Of a stretch of 64,000 nucleotides of DNA, positions 4,385-15,852 are shown one piece after another. The notes beneath the pieces were generated by a model, which was not told the origin of the DNA, ran no database searches, and saw only the letters and a program-made list of their open reading frames with translations. Positions within the stretch are counted from its first letter, which is position 1, and each line of letters opens with the position of its first letter. A program made the translations under genes and the position numbers. This stretch comes from Candidatus Hadarchaeota archaeon (lineage in GTDB: Archaea > CAYQAE01 > CAYVLA01), in NCBI GenBank assembly GCA_964621445.1, contig CAZUNO010000003.1:1-64000 (forward strand). The letters run 5' to 3'.

Positions 4385-5629
4385 TTATTCATTGGGTTCA
4401 GAATTCTGGCCATTGAGCCCTGGATCTCGGGATTGGAAACGTGTGGCTTTCACGCTTCTATGAAGCTTTCTACGTACCATAAGAGTCCACAGAACCGATC
4501 CACAAATCAAGTAGGTTAACGTCACCGTTATCCATTCGAAGATATGGATCCACGTCATAGCCTGGTTCCGCAGTTTCTCCAGCTCTCCTTCGATTTCTGG
4601 GAAAACATCCATGGCTTCTCTCAAAGTTTCCGTTGCTCTGTTCAAATTGCTCGAAAGGTAATCATGTTCGGCTTTCACTACCCCGGAATCTAGGTGAGCA
4701 AGACGATCTTCCACACTTTCAAGTTTTGCACCAAACTTGTCGACGAACTCCATAGTGGATATGGTTATTCCTTTTCGAACTCGGAAATCTACAAATAGCT
4801 CCCTTGCCAGGTGGGCCAACTCCAGGTCAGCTGGAGGCAGGACGGCGGCCAGAAAATAGAGCTGATTATAAAGCAAATCTGGCATATATCGATATTTGTT
4901 GAAAACCTCCATTGGGGGGTTATGCCATCCCTGACCGAGATGTAGTGTCTTACCTGAACCATATGATCCGGTCACCATAACAGGGGTATTCCTTCCTCTC
5001 CAGACTGCTTGCACAATGCTTCCTGGCCTGGGTTCCAAGTCGCCTCCATGATTTCCAAGCGTCTGCATAGGCTGCTTCTCGATGTCCGGCAAATTAAGTA
5101 TAGGATCCTTCCTGACAACCGACCAGTATGTTCGGCCCATACGGGACGGGATATCATTCATAACAACATCTGCCGGAAAGAGATCGTAAAATTCCAAAGT
5201 CTTCCATATCTCAATGTTATTCGTCCCCGCTCCACCGCCCCAGAACATATACGATATTAACCCAAGGCCAATGCCGTCATTCTCGATACCTTTTTGAATG
5301 AACCCAAGAACACGATTTCCAATTATGCCAGGAGGTATATTGTGCAGGACCACAACATCGCTGCTGGCATTTAGGTTATTGTAGGTCCTTGGTAGGTAGA
5401 GGCGGGTCATTTTCCTGGCCTGAGGCAAGGGTATGAAATAGGTATCACAAGGCACGATGGAGGTGGAGAGCTTTGGTTCGGCCATCATCCATTGTAAGAC
5501 TCTTTGGTTGGGAAGGTATGAAGCATCTCCCAGATAGAGAACACGAATTCTAAGGTCAGCCTTATCCACCCTGGCAAAGACCAGAGAGGGTGCCAAAAAC
5601 AGGATTAAAAATAGAAACCTGCGATCCAC
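4385..5629 (-). CDS. Secreted, C-terminally membrane-anchored hypothetical protein (possible class I glutamine-amidotransferase-like domain and helical stalk)
   Basis: Signal peptide (RRFLFLILFLAPSLVFA), IRVLYLGD, PVMVTGSYGSGKT, coiled-coil-like segment, TM helix ending in VRRK. Confidence 0.6.
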   Translation of the reverse strand: MDRRFLFLILFLAPSLVFARVDKADLRIRVLYLGDASYLPNQRVLQWMMAEPKLSTSIVPCDTYFIPLPQARKMTRLYLPRTYNNLNASSDVVVLHNIPPGIIGNRVLGFIQKGIENDGIGLGLISYMFWGGGAGTNNIEIWKTLEFYDLFPADVVMNDIPSRMGRTYWSVVRKDPILNLPDIEKQPMQTLGNHGGDLEPRPGSIVQAVWRGRNTPVMVTGSYGSGKTLHLGQGWHNPPMEVFNKYRYMPDLLYNQLYFLAAVLPPADLELAHLARELFVDFRVRKGITISTMEFVDKFGAKLESVEDRLAHLDSGVVKAEHDYLSSNLNRATETLREAMDVFPEIEGELEKLRNQAMTWIHIFEWITVTLTYLICGSVLWTLMVRRKLHRSVKATRFQSRDPGLNGQNSEPNE

Positions 5630-7731: not shown

Positions 7732-7940
7732 TCCCTCGATCGTCCCCTACCGCCTTAATAAATGCCAACCGATCGAACTCTGACAATTATCATCTATTTG
7801 ACAAAATTGAAAGGAATACACTTTTCACCATAATTCCCTGTTAATGAACAGTTCCTAGGTGCATCGCTAGATGGATTCGGGAAAATGTTCTAAGCCCTTC
7901 CGCATATTTGCGTGGACGAGGGTCCTTTGGAGGCCACAGC

Positions 7941-8498
7941 ATGAGAGAGGCGAAGGCTACCTCCATCATAGGAGAGACCTTACCAGTACTTATCCTAATG
8001 GCCCTAGCGGGCACCATAGCCGGGCTTTTTCTCAGCGCCGCACGTAGTAGTCTAGATGCATTTCCCGGGCTCCTTGTGCTGGTCCCCGCCATGCAGAATT
8101 TACGTGGAAGCATAAGCGGCAGTTTCGCATCCCGCCTGTCAACTGCTCTTCACAGGGGTACAGTACTTCCCACCTTCAGGGGCAACCCGGAATTACCTTC
8201 CTATGTGGTGGCCTCCCTGGTTATCAGCGCATTAATGTCCCTCATAGCCGGTCTTGGGGCCTTTCTGTTCTCCATGATGTTCGGTATACGAGCCCTAGGC
8301 ATCATGGGAATGGTAACCGTGTCAATGTCGGTCGGTGTTCTTGCGGGGACAATACACCTAATACTCAACCTAGGGGTTTCCATAACTAGTTACAGAAACG
8401 GCCTGGACCCTGACAACATATCCATCCCATCCCTCGCCATTTTTGGGGATATCGTCACCCTGTTCTGTTTTCTAATGATGATACGGGTGGTGACCTGA
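7941..8498 (+). CDS. MgtE-like divalent cation transporter membrane domain (subunit 1)
   Basis: LVPAMQNLRGSISGSFASRLST and GLDPDNISIP..GD. ATG 7941 follows GGAGG. Confidence 0.8.
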   Translation: MREAKATSIIGETLPVLILMALAGTIAGLFLSAARSSLDAFPGLLVLVPAMQNLRGSISGSFASRLSTALHRGTVLPTFRGNPELPSYVVASLVISALMSLIAGLGAFLFSMMFGIRALGIMGMVTVSMSVGVLAGTIHLILNLGVSITSYRNGLDPDNISIPSLAIFGDIVTLFCFLMMIRVVT

Positions 8499-9053
8499 TT
8501 GTCATCTTTTGACCCCAAGCGAATGCTGGTAAGATCGGTACCGGTTCTAACCGTGCTCCTCCTCATCGAGATGGTAGGGGGGACCGCCCTCGCCAGCTCC
8601 TATCAAACGGTAAGGGCGATCTTTCTCGTGCTCATTCCCCCTTTCCTGGCTGTAGGCGGGAATGTCGGAAGCGTTTTTGGATCACGTGTGTCATCAGGAC
8701 TACACCTCGGGCTGATCCGCCCTTCGTTGAGGGAAAACCCAGAGCTCAGGTCCAATCTGGTCGCATTATCAATCAGCGGGCTTGTTTCTTTCCTCTGTCT
8801 CGGCATTTTTGTTTATCTCATCGGCTCTTTAACCGGCATATCGGGTATTTCACCGCTCACATTCATGCTAATAACATTATTATCGGGGTGCTGTCTCACC
8901 TTCCTGACCATCGGAATATCACTTGGGGTCTGTTTCGCCTCCTTTAGAAGGGGATTGGACCCTGATGATGTGGTGGTACCGGTGGTAGCTTCAATGACGG
9001 ATCTACTGGGAATAATTCTGCTTCTGGGTTTCATTATCTTGCTGGGGAGTTAG
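8499..9053 (+). CDS. MgtE-like divalent cation transporter membrane domain (subunit 2)
   Basis: GGNVGSVFGSRVSSGLHLG and GLDPDDVVVP..TDLLG. Confidence 0.8.
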   Translation: MSSFDPKRMLVRSVPVLTVLLLIEMVGGTALASSYQTVRAIFLVLIPPFLAVGGNVGSVFGSRVSSGLHLGLIRPSLRENPELRSNLVALSISGLVSFLCLGIFVYLIGSLTGISGISPLTFMLITLLSGCCLTFLTIGISLGVCFASFRRGLDPDDVVVPVVASMTDLLGIILLLGFIILLGS

Positions 9054-9055
9054 CA

Positions 9056-9667
9056 ATGGATAGCTGGGAAAACACCACTGTCAGGGGCATTCTGATCGAG
9101 ATGAAGAACACCTCAGAGCTTGCCGTTTATCTCGCCTACTCAGCTCTGATGTTCCGAAACCAAAACATTGCGGATGAGGTAGCCGAGCTCGAGGAAAGGA
9201 TAGATGATCTCAACTCCAACATGAGAAGGGCGGCAATGCTATCGGTCAGGAACCCAGAGGATGCCGAGAAGTTGGAGCCGCTTCTTCGTATCTCATCCGC
9301 TGCGGACAGCATATCGAACGCAGCCAGCGAGATCGCAGAACTACTCCAGAGGGGGATGAAGATACACCCCATCATCTTCGAGGCTCTGGAAATGGCGGAG
9401 GAAAAGGTTGTAAGATGCAGGATCGAGCAGGAATCCAAATTAGCTGGAGTCTCTCTGGAGGATGCCAATTTAGAGTCCCGTATCGGATTAATGGTCATAG
9501 CCATCCGTATGCCGCGGGGCAAATGGATTTGGGGACCGGAGGATGAAACCCTAATACCGGTCAATGGTGTCATAATAGCCAGGGGACCCGGCGACGGTGC
9601 AGCAATACTCAGGCAGGTAGCCAAGGGGGAGAGAGAACTTCCTGAACTGGGGGTGGAAGAGGATTGA
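9056..9667 (+). CDS. PhoU-like + TrkA_C (RCK_C) domain protein
   Basis: LIEMKNTSELAVYLAYSA helical bundle, then IEQESKLAG...VIAIR...GP...IIARG. Confidence 0.8.
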   Translation: MDSWENTTVRGILIEMKNTSELAVYLAYSALMFRNQNIADEVAELEERIDDLNSNMRRAAMLSVRNPEDAEKLEPLLRISSAADSISNAASEIAELLQRGMKIHPIIFEALEMAEEKVVRCRIEQESKLAGVSLEDANLESRIGLMVIAIRMPRGKWIWGPEDETLIPVNGVIIARGPGDGAAILRQVAKGERELPELGVEED

Positions 9668-10257
9668 GGGAAAACGGAAAATTAAAGGATTTAATACTTA
9701 GCATGAAGAACCTCTCCGAGCTCACCCTAGATCTGTCCTATACCTCACTCCTATTCGATAGCCGGGAGATCTCGCGGGAGGTAGAGGAACTTGAAGAGGA
9801 GATGGACGACCTCTACTACAGAACACGCCTGGCAATACTTGACCTCGCCAAACGGGAGGAAGGGGATAGGTTGCTTAGCCTGATGCAGTTCGTGGACTCC
9901 ATGGAAAGGATAACCGATTCTGCCGCCGAGGTCTCGGAAATGGTTTCCGAGGGCATAGATCCCCATCCGGTTTTCGATATGGCCATGCGTGATACGGAGG
10001 ACATCATCTCCAGGGTCGACATCCAAGAGGAATCCGTGCTGGCCAACAGGAAGCTCGCCGAACTAAAGCTCGAAACCAAGGTAGGGGTCGACATCCTGGC
10101 CATAAAACGGGGTGGAAAACTAAGGTACCACCCCGGTGAGCAGGACCACCTACGCGTAGGCGACATGCTAATAGGAAAGGGTACGGAGGAGGCATTCGAT
10201 AAGCTAAGAAGCCTCGCCGGCGAGGAGGGAGAGGAAAAGCTCACGCTAGAGGAATGA
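9664..10257 (+). CDS. PhoU-like + TrkA_C (RCK_C) domain protein (paralogue)
   Basis: MKNLSELTLDLSYTSL, then ILAIKRG..YHP..LRVGDMLIGKG; overlaps the previous stop. Confidence 0.8.
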   Translation: MRENGKLKDLILSMKNLSELTLDLSYTSLLFDSREISREVEELEEEMDDLYYRTRLAILDLAKREEGDRLLSLMQFVDSMERITDSAAEVSEMVSEGIDPHPVFDMAMRDTEDIISRVDIQEESVLANRKLAELKLETKVGVDILAIKRGGKLRYHPGEQDHLRVGDMLIGKGTEEAFDKLRSLAGEEGEEKLTLEE

Positions 10258-11420: not shown

Positions 11421-13577
11421 TTACTCCCTCATCCAGATATCTCTCTGGTTAAACGGCATCTTAATACCCCTTTTCGAGAACTCGCTTGCTATTTCGAGAT
11501 TGATTTCATGCTTGATCTTCAACCTTCGCCCAGGGTGAGGTATCCAGGCGAATACAACCAGGTTGATTGAGGAATCCCCGAATTCCACTATCCTTACCTC
11601 GCGCTCCGGATCCTCGAGGACCTCCTCGTGCTTTGATGAAACCTCCAAAAGGACCTGCCTGACCTCCTCTAAATCCGAACCGTATGGGACATGGACAGGT
11701 ATCTGCAAACGTATCTTAGGATCGTATTTCGAGTAATTGGTTATCCTGTTCATGACAACGTTGGCGTTTGGAATTAACATACTTACATTATCCCGAGTCC
11801 TTATGATTGTAGCCCTGAGACCCACCTCCAGAACCTCCCCTTTTGCACCCTGAACCTCGACCATATCTCCACGTCTTAACGGTCTGTCGATGGTTAGGAT
11901 TACTCCCGAGACCAGATTCGTCATGATCTCCTTGCTGCCAAAGGCTAGGGCGACCCCGCCAACCCCGGTCCCAACCAACAGGGGGGCAGTGTTTACATCC
12001 AACTGGGAGATAGCGGTCAACCCTCCTACAATCGCTATGCCCCACGTCACGGCCCTAGACACCAGGAGCTGGGTACTGGCCTCTGCTCTCCTGGGGATTA
12101 ACCATAGCTTGGTCACCGCCGACGCCGCTCCCCATCCTATAATGTAGCTAGCAACCAGGATGCCAACCACGGTAAGCACATCAACTATTGGACCGCTCAT
12201 TCCACCCAAACCCAGGAAGAATCCCGTTACGTTAACGTAGGAATGCTGGGTCGTGGGAGGGGTCTGATCGCTCCTTATGATGACCGTATTATCTATCCTC
12301 TCCCCCTTGCTTACGGTTTTACTAACCCGGGCTACTAGCTCCAAAGTTGTCCGGTTTGAGCCCGAATCGACGGTTCCGATAACCCAAATCGCCCGGCGAG
12401 AGCTCTCATCGTAGCTTGCATTACCGTTGGCGTAAACGAATTCAAGACCAGAGGGCAGGACATCCTCGGTAATGACATTGGTGAGGGTTTGCTGGTTCTC
12501 CGAATTATCGGAGGAAATCTGGTAAGTTATCCTGTTCCCGGGCGAGGCCTTTTCCCTGGAGGAGGTTACCGCGAAGGCCAGAGGATTATAGGAGATATCA
12601 CTTGATGGCACAACAATACCGGTAGGACTACCGGCCAGATTGGTCCCATGTAATAAATTCAAATTCGAGTCCAGAACCATCAGGTCCCCCGAGCCCCCTC
12701 CGCCTTGGTTCCCGGTTGCTATATACACCAAGCCTGTATCCTCGTCGACCGCAATCCCAACCACGTTATCCTCCGGATATCCCGTTAGCTGGCGGATATC
12801 TACGGAGGATTCGCGGCCCGTATCCAGTTCATACTTTATGAGAAGCCCCTTGCTCCCGTAATTGGGGCAGGATTTCCCGGTATATACGAATCCGCTCCTG
12901 GAATCTACGGCAATTGCCTGGACGGTTTGATTTACCGAATAATTTGCCACAGACGACCAGTCATCTGTCGAAAAGACCTTTATGCCGTCTCGCGGCCCTT
13001 CCGATAAACCGACCCCGGTCATGTCCCCCACATAGAGCAGGGCCCTGCTGCGATCCAGAGCCAAACCATGGGCAAGTTCCACCCCTTTTAGGTCTATGGT
13101 GGAAATAAGTGACAGGTTCTGGTTCTTGACATCCCAGGAATAGGTGTACAGGTTATCGGTTTCTCGGTCCACGGTGTAGACCTCTCTCCCCGTTCCATCA
13201 TAAACGATGCCGGCAAGGTTCTCAGTATCCGGAGCCTGGGAAGAACCAATGCTGAGCATGGAAGTGCCATTGACCAGCTCCACGGTATTGCTCTCCTCAT
13301 ATGTCACGAACAGGATGCCTGAATCACTGTCGATGGCCAGACCAACTCCACCATCCCCACGCCGGGGAACCATATTCACCGACTGGTAAACCAGATAATT
13401 CGGAGCTGGCTGTATATCAAAGGCACTTATCGGGGTCGGATTAGCGTTGATATTGCCTATTATGTATAGCGATTTCCCGGAAACCCCCTCAAAATACGAA
13501 ACGGATACGAGGGCCAATATCGCCAATACGATACACCATCTTATCTTCAAAGCTCCTCCCATCTCCAGGTCACCCAT
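11421..13577 (-). CDS. MscS mechanosensitive channel fused to signal peptide, beta-propeller and DUF11 ectodomain
   Basis: Signal peptide; repeated G[LI]A[ILV]D...[LV][YF]V blades (~13475-12600); DUF11 (PGNRITYQI...EDVLPSGLEFV...IDNTV, ~12590-12225); three TMs and MscS core (ALAFG..NLVSG..RP...GD.V...G.V..VGLR.T...IPN). Confidence 0.85.
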   Translation of the reverse strand: MGDLEMGGALKIRWCIVLAILALVSVSYFEGVSGKSLYIIGNINANPTPISAFDIQPAPNYLVYQSVNMVPRRGDGGVGLAIDSDSGILFVTYEESNTVELVNGTSMLSIGSSQAPDTENLAGIVYDGTGREVYTVDRETDNLYTYSWDVKNQNLSLISTIDLKGVELAHGLALDRSRALLYVGDMTGVGLSEGPRDGIKVFSTDDWSSVANYSVNQTVQAIAVDSRSGFVYTGKSCPNYGSKGLLIKYELDTGRESSVDIRQLTGYPEDNVVGIAVDEDTGLVYIATGNQGGGGSGDLMVLDSNLNLLHGTNLAGSPTGIVVPSSDISYNPLAFAVTSSREKASPGNRITYQISSDNSENQQTLTNVITEDVLPSGLEFVYANGNASYDESSRRAIWVIGTVDSGSNRTTLELVARVSKTVSKGERIDNTVIIRSDQTPPTTQHSYVNVTGFFLGLGGMSGPIVDVLTVVGILVASYIIGWGAASAVTKLWLIPRRAEASTQLLVSRAVTWGIAIVGGLTAISQLDVNTAPLLVGTGVGGVALAFGSKEIMTNLVSGVILTIDRPLRRGDMVEVQGAKGEVLEVGLRATIIRTRDNVSMLIPNANVVMNRITNYSKYDPKIRLQIPVHVPYGSDLEEVRQVLLEVSSKHEEVLEDPEREVRIVEFGDSSINLVVFAWIPHPGRRLKIKHEINLEIASEFSKRGIKMPFNQRDIWMRE

Positions 13578-13606: not shown

Positions 13607-14446
13607 TCATTCCTTCCTCATCCAGACATCCACCTGGGGGAACGGAATCGCGATGTCGTTCTTACCAAACTGGTCATCTATCTGCCAGTTGATTTCGTCC
13701 CTTATCTTGACCCTTTGGCCGGGGTCATCTATCCAGCCAAAGAGTATGACATCTATGGAGGAGTTCCCAAATTCGCTAAGCCTGACCTCCGGAGGCGGGT
13801 CCTTGAGAACCTTGGGGTGCTTATCAGCTATCGATAACAGGACCTTTCTGACCTTCTCGATATCGGATCCGTAGGCGACCCCGATCGGTATCTGGAGCCT
13901 TATCTTGGGGTCGTATTTCGAGTAATTGGTGATCTTGTTGAGGATTATCAGCTTGTTTGGTATGAGGTGATTGACGTTATCCAGGTTTCTAACAGTTGAT
14001 GCCCTCAAACCGACGTCCACTACCTTTCCCTCCGCTCCCTCCACATCTACAATGTCACCAGGCCTAATTGGCCTATCGACCATGATGATGATCCCCGACA
14101 CCAGGTTGGCCACTATCTCCTGTACGCCAAAAGCAAGGGCTAGGCCAACTACGCCGAGCCCCATCAGCAAAGGGGTTATCCTAATTCCGGCCTCAGCGAT
14201 TGCTATCAGCACCCCCAGGATAATGATGCTGTATTTAATCACCCTAGTAATCAGAAGATCGGTGCTCAATTCGACCTTCTTGGGCTCCAGCCATATCCTC
14301 CGAACTAGGTAGGCCACCGCCCAACCGACGATATAGCTCACTAGGAGAACTACTATTATGGTAATCAGGTCCCCCCACTCGAAGGTCTCCGGATTACCAC
14401 TAGGAAAACTAGGTAATTGCATTTTAACCCGGGTCGAGGTCTCCAC
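13607..14446 (-). CDS. mscS: MscS small-conductance mechanosensitive channel
   Basis: GLALAFGVQEIVANLVSG, DRPIRPGD, VGLRASTV, IPN, IGVAYGSD, IPFPQ. The start may be ATG 14422. Confidence 0.92.
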   Translation of the reverse strand: METSTRVKMQLPSFPSGNPETFEWGDLITIIVVLLVSYIVGWAVAYLVRRIWLEPKKVELSTDLLITRVIKYSIIILGVLIAIAEAGIRITPLLMGLGVVGLALAFGVQEIVANLVSGIIIMVDRPIRPGDIVDVEGAEGKVVDVGLRASTVRNLDNVNHLIPNKLIILNKITNYSKYDPKIRLQIPIGVAYGSDIEKVRKVLLSIADKHPKVLKDPPPEVRLSEFGNSSIDVILFGWIDDPGQRVKIRDEINWQIDDQFGKNDIAIPFPQVDVWMRKE

Positions 14447-14484
14447 TAACCAATATTTTAAGCTTTCTTACGGAACGCGCCCTA

Positions 14485-15852
14485 TTAGACATCGAGATAC
14501 ATCTGGAAATCTACATTTGATGGTCTGGAACTGTAGAGCTGAGCTTCCTCTCTCTTGATCTCCAGGAAATTGGACATTATATGATCTCCTATGGCTTCGG
14601 AGATGACCTCATCGGATTCTAGTTCATCCAGAGCTTCGGGGAGAGAACCCGGCAAAAACTCGCACCCGGCACCTGGCTTGTACAGATCCTTCTCGGTGAC
14701 CTCCCCTGGTTCGATCTCCTTATCTATGCCGTCCAACCCGGCCGCTAGCATGGCTGCGAATGCCAAATACGGATTGGCCGAGGGATCCGGTGAACGATAC
14801 TCGATTCTAGTTGATGAGACATCCCCGGATGGCACCCTAATCAGGGCCGTCCGGTTCCTACGTCCCCAGGCAATGTTAACCGGGGCTTCCCAACCGGGGA
14901 CAAGGCGCTTATAGGAGTTCGCTGTGGGGTTTGTGAGTGCGGTTATGCCCTTTGCATGTTTTAGGAGGCCTCCTATGTAATACAGGGCGATCTGGGAAAG
15001 GTCGCCCGTTTCGGGGTCAGAGAAAATGTTCCTCTTTTTGCCATCTTCAACGGCCACCAGATTTTGGTGGGTATGCATCCCGCTCCCGTTCATGGAGCCA
15101 AAGGGCTTCGGCATGAAGGTGGCAATCAATTCGTTACGGTAGGCGTACTGTCTGATTATATCCTTAATGGTGATGGTTGCATCCGCAATGGTTACCGCTC
15201 TGCCGTATCTGAAGTCCACCTCATATTGGCTTGGGGCCACCTCCTTGTGATAGGCCTCGTATCTAATTCCCATCATGGCCATGGCCTCCATAACCTTACC
15301 CAGGATCGATCGGCCTCGGGTAGGCGGCGCGTCAAAATATCCCTTGTCGTCTATTCTCCTATAATCATCCTCACCCCTTTCTAGAAGGAAGAACTCGAGC
15401 TCCGGAGCAACATAGAACCTGAAATCCAGCCCGTCTACGTCCATGTGGCCTGAAAGAGCGTCCGGAATCCTATCCAGGGTCCTGGCCAGAAGGTGTCGGC
15501 TGTCACCCTCAAATGGCAGGTACTCGGAGCCGGACTTTTGTGGATAATAGACATCACACATGGCACGCCATACATCGCGGGTCCAGGGAACGGGGGTGAA
15601 AGTTTCCGGGTCGGGAATTATGAGCAGGTCGCTTTCCTCCACCGGTACCCCGTACCCGTATATGGACGAACCATCGATCTTAAAACCATCTTGGAATACC
15701 TTTTCATCACGGAACTCCTCGATGGTAACGCTCTTGAACTTCAAATTTCCAAGCACATCAACGAACTGGAGGTCGACGATCTGGGCACCCTCATCGGTAG
15801 CTCGTTGTAGCTTCTTTGAGAAATTAGCTAATGATTCTGAACTCGGCGGCAA
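14485..15852 (-). CDS. glnA: Glutamine synthetase type I
   Basis: DGSSI, EESD, PELEFF, EVAPSQYE, FMPKP, NGSGMH, NSYKRLVPG.EAP, NRTALIRVP, RIEYRSPDPSANPY. Confidence 0.92.
   Translation of the reverse strand: MPPSSESLANFSKKLQRATDEGAQIVDLQFVDVLGNLKFKSVTIEEFRDEKVFQDGFKIDGSSIYGYGVPVEESDLLIIPDPETFTPVPWTRDVWRAMCDVYYPQKSGSEYLPFEGDSRHLLARTLDRIPDALSGHMDVDGLDFRFYVAPELEFFLLERGEDDYRRIDDKGYFDAPPTRGRSILGKVMEAMAMMGIRYEAYHKEVAPSQYEVDFRYGRAVTIADATITIKDIIRQYAYRNELIATFMPKPFGSMNGSGMHTHQNLVAVEDGKKRNIFSDPETGDLSQIALYYIGGLLKHAKGITALTNPTANSYKRLVPGWEAPVNIAWGRRNRTALIRVPSGDVSSTRIEYRSPDPSANPYLAFAAMLAAGLDGIDKEIEPGEVTEKDLYKPGAGCEFLPGSLPEALDELESDEVISEAIGDHIMSNFLEIKREEAQLYSSRPSNVDFQMYLDV

What the first reader, a model, noticed from the sequence alone, without database searches (positions are those of the whole stretch)
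11421..13577. MscS channel carrying an adhesin-like beta-propeller + DUF11 ectodomain (candidate tethered mechanosensor)
Seen: one uninterrupted 718-aa ORF. It has a signal peptide, at least five propeller blades (GLAID/GIVYD/GLALD/AIAVD/GIAVD), a DUF11 Ig-like module, several N-x-S/T sequons (NGT, NLS, NYS, NQT, NAS, NRT, NVT), then a complete 3-TM MscS with cytoplasmic cage. Established: MscS forms heptamers gated by membrane tension; the larger members I know (MscK type) have helical periplasmic domains, while propeller/DUF11 modules are typical of archaeal surface proteins. Inference: the channel may be gated through an extracellular tether (S-layer, surface, partner cell or ligand). I do not know a described example of this architecture.
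Basis: partly seen in the sequence, partly recalled or inferred. Interest (0 to 1): 0.75.

Follow-up and report, generated by a model that had tools for sequence, protein, structure and literature searches.

The report
MscS channel with propeller ectodomain
A rare archaeal pressure-relief channel carries a large beta-propeller surface module in place of its usual short outer cap, so it could be used to test whether such channels can be tuned or pulled from outside the cell.

Summary
Window 11421..13577, minus strand, is one uninterrupted 718-aa gene. It encodes a signal peptide, a six-bladed beta-propeller, a DUF11 Ig-like domain, a ~16-residue linker and a complete 3-TM MscS with its cytoplasmic cage.

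Contigs from two sequencing runs cross the domain junction with no differences. The same fusion occurs in eight 90%-identity clusters, in a second genome of the same small archaeal phylum, and in three metagenome loci.

It is rare. All copies fall into one 50%-identity cluster among 1.84 billion representatives.

The fused channel parts form a single clade beside the lineage's plain MscS genes, one of which lies directly upstream. The ectodomain belongs to a widespread family of surface modules. These are normally held by a C-terminal TM or PEF-CTERM anchor, or by an OmpA barrel. The likeliest origin is therefore an anchor swapped for an MscS.

Best reading: a tension-gated heptameric valve whose ectodomain crown modulates gating, as the periplasmic rings of MscK and MscM do. 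Tethered gating remains possible but untested. This is a new variant of a known kind.

The parts
11421..13577 (-). Whole CDS, 718 codons plus stop: the propeller-DUF11-MscS fusion protein
   Evidence: Single ORF. Pfam domains. Same architecture in 8 aligned proteins with 71% mean column identity.
13476..13577 (-). Signal peptide, residues 1-34, with probable cleavage after VSG, just before K35
   Evidence: Hydrophobic stretch centred on residues 13-26. Helix 9-26 in the model. The mature N-terminus 'KSLY(V/I)I' follows A-S-A-type sites in homologues. Cleavage itself is inferred.
12591..13475 (-). Six-bladed beta-propeller, residues 35-329
   Evidence: AlphaFold2 pLDDT 94.4, pTM 0.91. VIA-align Z 30.5 to the nidogen YWTD propeller, with NHL and LDLR-type propellers next. 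Pfam Lactonase reaches only 20.8 bits, below its 21.7 cut-off.
12228..12590 (-). DUF11 (TIGR01451) Ig-like beta-sandwich, residues 330-450
   Evidence: PF01345 E 5.4e-12 and TIGR01451 32.6 bits against a cut-off of 24. Beta strands 336-450 in the model. The best Foldseek match is an archaeal S-layer propeller+PKD tandem, 1l0q, E 1.8e-15.
12180..12227 (-). Gly-rich linker, residues 451-466 (GFFLGLGGMSGPIV)
   Evidence: pLDDT below 50 for residues 454-467. The 'NVTGF..GLGG..P.V(R)D' pattern is partly conserved in the 8 fusions.
11889..12179 (-). MscS membrane domain: TM1 467-491, TM2 501-524, pore helix TM3a/b 531-563
   Evidence: Aligns to E. coli MscS TM1-TM3. Helices in the model. The TM3 Gly/Ala motif (G536, G538, G541, A543, A545, G547) is invariant in the fusions.
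11424..11888 (-). Cytoplasmic cage: beta domain and alpha-beta domain, residues 564-718
   Evidence: PF00924 at 69.6 bits and PF21082 at 68.4 bits. Alignment to E. coli MscS up to residue 276.
13607..14446 (-). Plain 279-aa MscS paralogue, 29 nt upstream on the same strand
   Evidence: 53% identity to residues 466-718 of the fusion. Pfam MscS domains. The same order (glutamine synthetase, plain MscS, fusion) occurs in metagenome locus L017, but not in L007 or L019.
14485..15852 (-). Glutamine synthetase, 38 nt upstream of the plain MscS on the same strand (context only)
   Evidence: Gln-synt_C E 1.5e-110. The gene order is shared with L017.

Best explanation
This is one real gene for an MscS-family channel. 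The short outer N-terminal cap of a normal MscS has been replaced by a ~415-residue all-beta surface module: a six-bladed propeller followed by a DUF11 Ig-like domain.

Proposed route and mechanism:
1. The protein is exported by its signal peptide.
2. The module stays outside the cell.
3. A ~16-residue Gly-rich linker leads straight into TM1 of a canonical 3-TM MscS, whose cage sits in the cytoplasm.
4. Like other MscS proteins it should form a heptamer. That would place seven modules as a crown around the outer mouth.
5. The pore is most likely still opened by membrane tension and acts as an osmotic release valve.
6. Because the crown hangs on the tension-sensing TM1 paddles, it most likely shifts the threshold, kinetics or ligand dependence of gating. 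The periplasmic rings of MscK and MscM act this way.

Origin: the fusion arose once. A cell-surface protein normally held by a C-terminal TM or PEF-CTERM anchor was joined to a plain MscS of the same lineage.

Shown here: gene integrity, domain order, predicted topology, conservation, rarity and single origin. Inferred: signal peptide cleavage, the heptamer, tension gating and any modulation by the crown.
For: Integrity of the gene:
- The ORF is intact and the domains are present.
- Contigs from two runs bridge the junction without any difference.

Channel core:
- It aligns to E. coli MscS 28-276 at E 5.6e-35.
- The gate positions I recall as L105 and L109 are V and F here. The pair I recall as D62-R128 is E499-R565.
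- The TM3 Gly/Ala motif and 'DRP' are invariant in all 8 fusions.

Topology:
- There is a signal helix plus three TM helices.
- K490, R496 and R497 follow TM1, as the positive-inside rule expects.

Conservation and distribution:
- The 8 fusion proteins share 54-67% identity with the window protein across both halves.
- The fusion is present in 2 of 5 species genomes of the phylum and in loci L007, L017, L018 and L019.

Single origin: the channel parts of the fusions form one clade with support 99/100, next to the plain MscS genes of the lineage.

The ectodomain keeps its family core: 91 of the 141 positions invariant among the fusions are also at least 80% conserved in 62 other family members.

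Anchor swap: stand-alone homologues end in a short linker, a TM helix and a basic tail. Of 7 scanned, 2 pass the PEF-CTERM cut-off. Bacterial homologues carry OmpA barrels.

Precedent for outer rings that take part in gating: MscK and MscM (passages of PMC13591265).
Against: - No functional, expression or structural data exist for the assembled protein.
- The linker is Gly-rich and of low model confidence, which argues against rigid coupling.
- The ectodomain shows only 8 fusion-specific invariant positions, so there is little sign that it was reshaped for a new coupling role.
- Seven ~45-kDa modules on one heptamer may be crowded. This is my own geometric estimate and was not computed.
- The ectodomain family has no known ligand or activity.
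- 3 of the 5 genomes in the phylum lack the fusion, so it is dispensable.
Confidence: 0.5

Rival explanations
1. Anchor or scaffold only. The MscS part works as an ordinary tension-gated valve and also serves as a heptameric membrane anchor. It displays seven copies of a surface module that binds or acts on something outside the cell. The module has no effect on gating.
For: - The module is a mobile surface cassette found with many different anchors: C-terminal TM or PEF-CTERM, OmpA barrel, PKD, dockerin-like.
- The spacing from DUF11 to the TM helix is the same short length in stand-alone proteins and in the fusion.
- Only 8 fusion-specific invariant positions exist in the ectodomain.
- The linker is flexible.
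Against: - The module is attached within ~16 residues of TM1, which I recall to be the tension-sensing paddle of MscS. Seven bulky domains there are unlikely to be energetically silent (inference).
- The outer rings of MscK and MscM do affect gating.
- The fusion has been kept through divergence down to 48-55% identity, with both halves equally conserved.
Confidence: 0.28
2. Tethered mechanosensor. The propeller binds the S-layer, an external matrix or a partner cell. Force or displacement passes through the Ig-like stalk to TM1 and opens or biases the channel.
For: - The topology is right, and the module sits directly on TM1.
- The propeller+Ig tandem most resembles an archaeal S-layer protein fragment, 1l0q.
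- Five clade-specific conserved sequons fit an exposed, possibly glycosylated surface domain.
- A six-bladed NHL propeller is the extracellular domain of M. tuberculosis PknD, 1rwi, Z 23.0.
Against: - No partner has been identified.
- The Gly-rich, low-confidence linker would transmit force poorly.
- From my own knowledge, every MscS relative studied so far is gated by the lipid bilayer.
- Nothing in the neighbourhood encodes an obvious partner.
Confidence: 0.15
3. Artefact. Two genes (a surface protein and an MscS starting at M460) were joined by an assembly or sequencing error.
For: An in-frame Met (M460, 'MSGPIVD') lies just before TM1.
Against: - Contigs of two runs bridge the junction with 0 differences.
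- The same uninterrupted fusion occurs in 8 protein clusters, in genome G002 and in 3 metagenome loci at 48-67% identity.
- M460 is not conserved in those proteins.
Confidence: 0.02

Closest known systems
E. coli MscS (small-conductance mechanosensitive channel, e.g. PDB 2oau, 6rld)
   Same: A 3-TM core, pore helix TM3, beta domain and alpha-beta cage. Residues 464-715 align to MscS 28-276 at E ~1e-34. The gate positions are hydrophobic.
   Different: MscS has only ~27 outer N-terminal residues. Here a signal peptide and a ~415-residue propeller+Ig module precede TM1. The position I recall as G113 is Glu here.
MscK and MscM (large E. coli MscS paralogues, PDB 7uw5, 11so)
   Same: An MscS core plus a large extracytoplasmic N-terminal domain of similar size (~470 aa in MscK). 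That domain forms a ring over the channel and takes part in gating.
   Different: Those channels have 11 TM helices and helical-bundle periplasmic domains. This protein has 3 TM helices and an all-beta module. It has no PF12794 or PF12795 hit, and the NCBIfam MscK score is 137 against a cut-off of 991.
Stand-alone propeller+DUF11 surface proteins (JGI name 'uncharacterized repeat protein, TIGR01451 family'), e.g. P0032 labelled Methanoculleus sp., and P0053
   Same: 34-50% identity over the listed non-fusion rows, with 26 invariant positions in 70 aligned sequences. They share the signal peptide and the 'KSLYVIA' mature N-terminus.
   Different: They end in a single TM or PEF-CTERM anchor, an OmpA barrel, PKD or other domains, not in a channel. 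Their function is unknown.
Methanosarcina surface-layer protein fragment, YVTN propeller + PKD (PDB 1l0q)
   Same: The same two-domain plan, a beta-propeller followed by an Ig-like domain, in an archaeal surface protein. It is the best Foldseek match, E 1.8e-15.
   Different: Only 14-18% identity. As I recall, that propeller has seven blades, against six here. It carries PKD rather than DUF11 and has no channel.
Eukaryotic tethered mechanosensitive channels (NOMPC, TMC with tip link, MEC-4 complex)
   Same: Only the proposed principle that force could arrive through a protein link rather than through lipid.
   Different: There is no homology. No tether partner is known here, and the principle is untested for this protein. 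This comparison rests on my own knowledge.

Membership tests
MscS family (Pfam MS_channel_1st/2nd/3rd) | The three Pfam core domains score above their gathering cut-offs | tested here: met
   27.2 against 23.1, 69.6 against 20.2 and 68.4 against 21 bits.
MscS family (Pfam MS_channel_1st/2nd/3rd) | Full-length alignment to solved MscS from TM1 to the end of the cage | tested here: met
   Residues 464-715 align to E. coli MscS 28-276, E 5.6e-35.
MscS family (Pfam MS_channel_1st/2nd/3rd) | Hydrophobic constriction in TM3a and the Gly/Ala helix-packing motif | tested here: met
   V and F at the positions aligned to L105 and L109 (the roles of these residues are recalled). G536, G538, G541, A543, A545 and G547 are invariant in the fusions.
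MscS family (Pfam MS_channel_1st/2nd/3rd) | Heptameric assembly and tension-activated conductance | not testable with these tools
   Needs cryo-EM and patch-clamp.
MscK/MscM-type large MscS paralogues | Eight extra TM helices (11 in all) and a helical periplasmic domain | tested here: not met
   Only a signal helix plus 3 TM helices. The ectodomain is all-beta. The NCBIfam MscK match covers only the core, at 137 bits against a cut-off of 991.
DUF11 / TIGR01451 repeat domain | Profile match above the cut-off | tested here: met
   PF01345 46.5 against 24.6 bits. TIGR01451 32.6 against 24 bits.
Pfam Lactonase (PF10282) / YncE seven-bladed propellers | Profile match above the cut-off, and seven blades | tested here: not met
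   Lactonase scores 20.8 bits, below its 21.7 cut-off. YncE scores 16.7 against 400. The model has 24 propeller strands, which is six blades, and its best matches are propellers I recall as six-bladed.
Six-bladed beta-propeller fold (YWTD / NHL-like) | Six four-stranded blades, closed by the N-terminal strand | tested here: met
   Model pLDDT 94.4. Z 30.5, rmsd 2.3 A over 254 residues to 1npe, then LRP4, ApoER2 and TRIM71 NHL. This is fold level only and implies no shared function.
Propeller+DUF11 surface-module family (unnamed) | High identity over the whole ~425-residue module, and the family's invariant positions | tested here: met
   228 hits at E<=1e-3, with listed non-fusion rows 33-50% identical. 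26 invariant columns in 70 sequences, which include the fusions.
Tethered (force-from-filament) mechanosensitive channels | A physical link from the channel to an external or cytoskeletal element that carries the gating force | not testable with these tools
   No partner is known. Two copies of the ectodomain gave no verdict in the complex predictor (see Tried and rejected).

The most novel reading that the evidence does not exclude
A prokaryotic MscS whose gate is opened or strongly biased from outside. A rigid crown of seven propeller/Ig modules would contact the S-layer, a glycan matrix or a partner cell and pass displacement or ligand binding to the TM1 paddles. This would be the first natural 'force-from-tether' or ectodomain-gated member of a family so far known only as lipid-gated. 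In a wall-less, S-layer-clad archaeon it could sense how close the membrane is to the S-layer.
Probability: 0.15. Interest if true: 0.85.

Novelty: new variant of a known kind. Interest (0 to 1): 0.55.

Why it matters
MscS channels are the textbook case of gating by force from lipids. The only large outer domains studied so far, in MscK and MscM, are helical and come with eight extra TM helices.

Here a compact, confidently modelled all-beta module sits directly on the minimal 3-TM core. A plain paralogue 53% identical in the channel part lies next door as a natural control. That gives a clean system for asking whether an outer domain can set the threshold, hysteresis or ligand dependence of an MscS, or can act as a tether.

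It also shows how a channel can be recruited as the membrane anchor of a mobile surface cassette, in a barely studied archaeal phylum that has five species genomes in the collection searched.

Tried and rejected
- **Ectodomain self-association.** Complex prediction with two copies of the ectodomain (alignment A2) returned 'no answer': score 0.01 against a mark of 0.42, and the controls were not run. This is no evidence either way on ring formation.
- **Cluster names.** The taxa of those seven clusters remain unknown.
- **Expression.** The look-up of sequencing runs listed no RNA holder. There were four DNA runs from one study, so expression is untested. The runs are kept only as contigs, so read-level depth and strand are unavailable.
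- **Literature.** Six searches found no paper on a propeller or DUF11 ectodomain on an MscS, judged from listings and abstract starts only. The terms were: MscS / beta-propeller / extracellular domain / archaea; MscS superfamily / periplasmic domain / domain architecture; MscS-like / tethered / force-from-filament / prokaryotic; DUF11 / mechanosensitive; MscS-like channels / tinkering; MscK / periplasmic / cryo-EM. Subscription-journal reviews of MscS diversity are not in the library, and InterPro/CDART could not be queried.
- **Sequon enrichment.** Rejected as a statistical claim.
- **Recent tandem duplication as the origin.** Rejected. In the tree the adjacent plain MscS groups with that of L017, outside the fusion clade.
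- **A second, distant MscS fusion.** P0237 (700 aa, match running to query residue 554) turned out to be an OmpA-barrel fusion.
- **Archaeoglobi locus L009.** The homologue stops after ~120 codons, just upstream of an opposite-strand ORF that looks like a mobile element. It says nothing about fusion.
- **ESM Atlas.** For the ectodomain it gave only sub-0.9 leads, 'lactonase / DUF11'.
- **A conserved 414-aa neighbour as a possible partner.** Rejected, because that family has ~150 copies per genome, so adjacency is expected by chance.
- **DUF11 alone.** Its fold assignment rests on the profiles and on the two-domain match to 1l0q.
- **Earlier findings of this scan.** Three look-ups returned nothing.
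Full report
**1. The observation**

Window 11421..13577 holds one uninterrupted ORF of 718 codons on the minus strand.

- Pfam places DUF11 at residues 336-443. The three MscS core domains are at 513-549, 551-617 and 626-707. All four score above their gathering cut-offs.
- A weak Lactonase-type propeller match at 83-184 falls just below its cut-off.
- NCBIfam matches MscS and MscK models only over the core, plus TIGR01451.
- Against solved structures, residues 464-715 align without large gaps to E. coli MscS 28-276 (E 5.6e-35), that is, from TM1 to the end of the cage.
- At the positions I recall as the hydrophobic gate (L105, L109) the protein has V and F. The pair aligned to D62/R128 is E499/R565. 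G113 is replaced by Glu.
- Hydropathy finds one N-terminal hydrophobic stretch and the three TM segments.
- The start codon is uncertain: ATG at 13577, ATG at codon 6, or TTG at codon 10. The database copy P0002 has 709 aa, which matches the TTG start.

**2. Structure**

AlphaFold2 on residues 35-460, with a 70-sequence alignment, gives pLDDT 94.4 and pTM 0.91.

- There are 24 strands up to about residue 329, followed by a beta-sandwich.
- An all-against-representatives structural search ranks propellers I recall as six-bladed first. They are nidogen YWTD (Z 30.5, rmsd 2.3 A over 254 residues), LRP4, ApoER2 and TRIM71 NHL. The extracellular NHL domain of M. tuberculosis PknD scores Z 23.0.
- The best Foldseek match is the archaeal S-layer YVTN-propeller+PKD tandem 1l0q (E 1.8e-15).

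The full-length model (pLDDT 85.3) has these elements:

| Element | Residues |
|---|---|
| Signal helix | 9-26 |
| Ectodomain | 36-450 |
| Linker, pLDDT below 50 | 454-467 |
| TM1 | 467-491 |
| TM2 | 501-524 |
| TM3a / TM3b | 531-545 / 549-563 |
| Cage | 564-718 |

K490, R496 and R497 follow TM1, as expected for an N-out helix. The module is therefore outside the cell and the cage inside, the same topology as MscS.

**3. It is not an artefact**

- Contigs of two runs from different samples of one study cross the DUF11/TM1 junction (12179-12228) with no differences or gaps. They are X1 at 12089-13095 and X2 at 11910-12891.
- A search with the ectodomain lists 120 best rows. Eight of them (P0002-P0009, 681-716 aa, one being the window's own protein) also carry the MscS domains.
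- Aligned, the eight fusion proteins have 71% mean column identity. Both halves are equally conserved and the junction is open in all. M460, the possible internal start, is not conserved.

**4. Distribution**

- The window's genome is a 3.2-Mb, 96%-complete assembly. It holds one copy of the ectodomain and five MscS-family genes.
- Its phylum, as held in the genome collection, has five species genomes. The fusion is in two of them, G000 and G002 (716-718 aa open frame, 49% identity).
- G002 corresponds to locus L007, whose record title reads 'Candidatus Hadarchaeota archaeon'.
- A pattern scan of 185,579 species genomes found no other full-length copy (sensitivity is limited to two peptide patterns).
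- The metagenome scan gave three full-length loci: L017 at 67%, and L018 and L019 both at 55%.
- An exhaustive HMMER search of 1.84 billion 50%-identity representatives gave 47,885 hits at E<=1e-3. Among the best 150, only P0007 (712 aa, query 12-717) and a 419-aa fragment, P0123 (DUF11+MscS), span both halves.
- I Pfam-scanned 7 of those 150. For the rest I rely on the matched ranges, which cover either the ectodomain or the channel.
- A search with the channel part among longer proteins gave 93 hits. Eight carry DUF11, and all eight belong to this family. The other 85 are MscK-like, DUF3772, cNMP-binding or unannotated forms, none with a propeller or Ig domain on record (the candidates were capped).

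**5. Origin**

- A plain 279-aa MscS lies 29 nt upstream on the same strand, preceded by glutamine synthetase. It is 53% identical to the fusion's channel part.
- The same three-gene order is in L017. In L007 and L019 the fusion is followed by a sulfatase-like gene instead.
- In a maximum-likelihood tree of 19 channel sequences the fusions form one clade with support 99/100. That clade also holds P0224, a 218-aa N-terminally incomplete protein. It sits next to the plain MscS genes of the same lineage. The adjacent plain gene groups with its L017 orthologue outside that clade.
- So the fusion is old and arose once.

The ectodomain belongs to a large family found in archaea and bacteria.

- There were 228 hits at E<=1e-3 among capped candidates. 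Source names include Methanoculleus, Methanoperedens, Methanophagaceae, Planctomycetota, Methylomonas and Chloroflexota.
- Stand-alone archaeal members end in a short linker, one TM helix and a basic tail. Of 7 scanned, P0053 and P0108 pass the PEF-CTERM cut-off and P0032 is just under it.
- Bacterial members carry OmpA barrels, PKD or dockerin-like tails.
- An N-out C-terminal anchor helix has the same topology as MscS TM1, so replacing the anchor with an MscS is a simple event.
- 141 of 426 ectodomain positions are invariant among the fusions. Of these, 91 are at least 80% conserved in the other 62 aligned family members, and only 8 are fusion-specific. The module has kept its family core.
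- Five sequons are kept in 7-8 of 8 fusions but in few other members. This fits lineage-specific N-glycosylation, although shared ancestry alone could explain some of it. The raw sequon count is not enriched.

**6. Mechanism**

The invariant pore-helix motif, the 'DRP' turn and the cage argue that the channel is functional. By homology it should be a heptamer opened by membrane tension.

The module hangs on TM1 through about 16 residues. From my own knowledge, TM1-TM2 form the tension-sensing paddle, and the outer N-terminus of E. coli MscS contributes to gating. Seven 45-kDa modules there would form a crown.

The review PMC13591265 (passages read) gives the best-supported analogy:
- MscK carries a ~470-aa periplasmic helical domain whose ring dilates on gating.
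- The MscM ring disassembles on gating, and deleting it lowers hysteresis.
- Both channels have 11 TM helices.

I therefore favour a lipid-gated valve whose crown tunes threshold, kinetics or ligand dependence (0.5). The rivals are an anchor-only reading (0.28), true tethered gating (0.15) and an artefact (0.02). None of the coupling steps is shown. The Gly-rich, low-confidence linker and the lack of any known partner count against rigid force transmission.

**7. Comparison and novelty**

The protein is a member of the MscS family and of the DUF11 and propeller+DUF11 surface-module families. It is not an MscK/MscM-type protein, because those defining features were tested and not met. My searches found no described MscS with an all-beta ectodomain. 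However, InterPro could not be queried and subscription reviews are not held. I rate it a new variant of a known kind, with interest 0.55.

**8. What remains open**

- Expression (no RNA holder was listed).
- Ring formation (the complex prediction gave no verdict).
- The ligand or activity of the ectodomain family.

Noticed in passing
window 4385..5629 (-): A 414-aa protein with a signal peptide and a C-terminal TM helix plus basic tail, and no Pfam hit. It belongs to a hugely expanded family. There are 155 matches in this 3.2-Mb genome, and 157, 145 and 106 in three genomes of the same family, but 0 in the one genome of the sister family. ESM Atlas leads point to archaeal 'GATase1_like' (PF07090) clusters, where that family is carried by only 12-30% of members. 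At about 1.2 kb each, roughly 5% of the genome may encode these anchored surface proteins.
   Followed up: partly
window 13607..15852 (-) and L017 3467..7956 (+): Glutamine synthetase, the plain MscS and the fusion lie on one strand with gaps of 38 and 29 nt (61 and 58 nt in L017). This may be an operon linking glutamine or glutamate metabolism to solute-release channels. The order is absent in L007 and L019.
   Followed up: partly
window 7908..10257 (+): Two tandem half-size MgtE-type membrane genes (196 and 184 aa) are followed by two tandem PhoU+TrkA_C genes (203 and 197 aa). This looks like a split divalent-cation transporter with its own regulators. The same block occurs in L017.
   Followed up: no
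L009 5986..7374: In a locus whose record title reads 'Archaeoglobi archaeon', the propeller-module gene stops after ~120 codons. It is followed by an opposite-strand 219-aa ORF that looks like a transposase or integrase by eye. No family scan was run.
   Followed up: no
proteins P0118, P0237, P0086 (relatives of the ectodomain): The same propeller+DUF11 module, 41-42% identical for P0118 and P0086 and 35% for P0237, is fused in bacteria to OmpA-type beta-barrels or to a dockerin-like tail. The cassette therefore moves between domains of life and between anchor types.
   Followed up: partly
P0001 residues 336-343 and 430 (window about 12286..12572): DUF11 gives weak hits to an isopeptide-forming fimbrial domain model: TIGR04226 at E 0.0039 here and 2.8e-6 in P0108. 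The first-strand Lys seen in most family members is Val in the window protein, and it varies among the fusions. Any stabilising cross-link is therefore not conserved.
   Followed up: no
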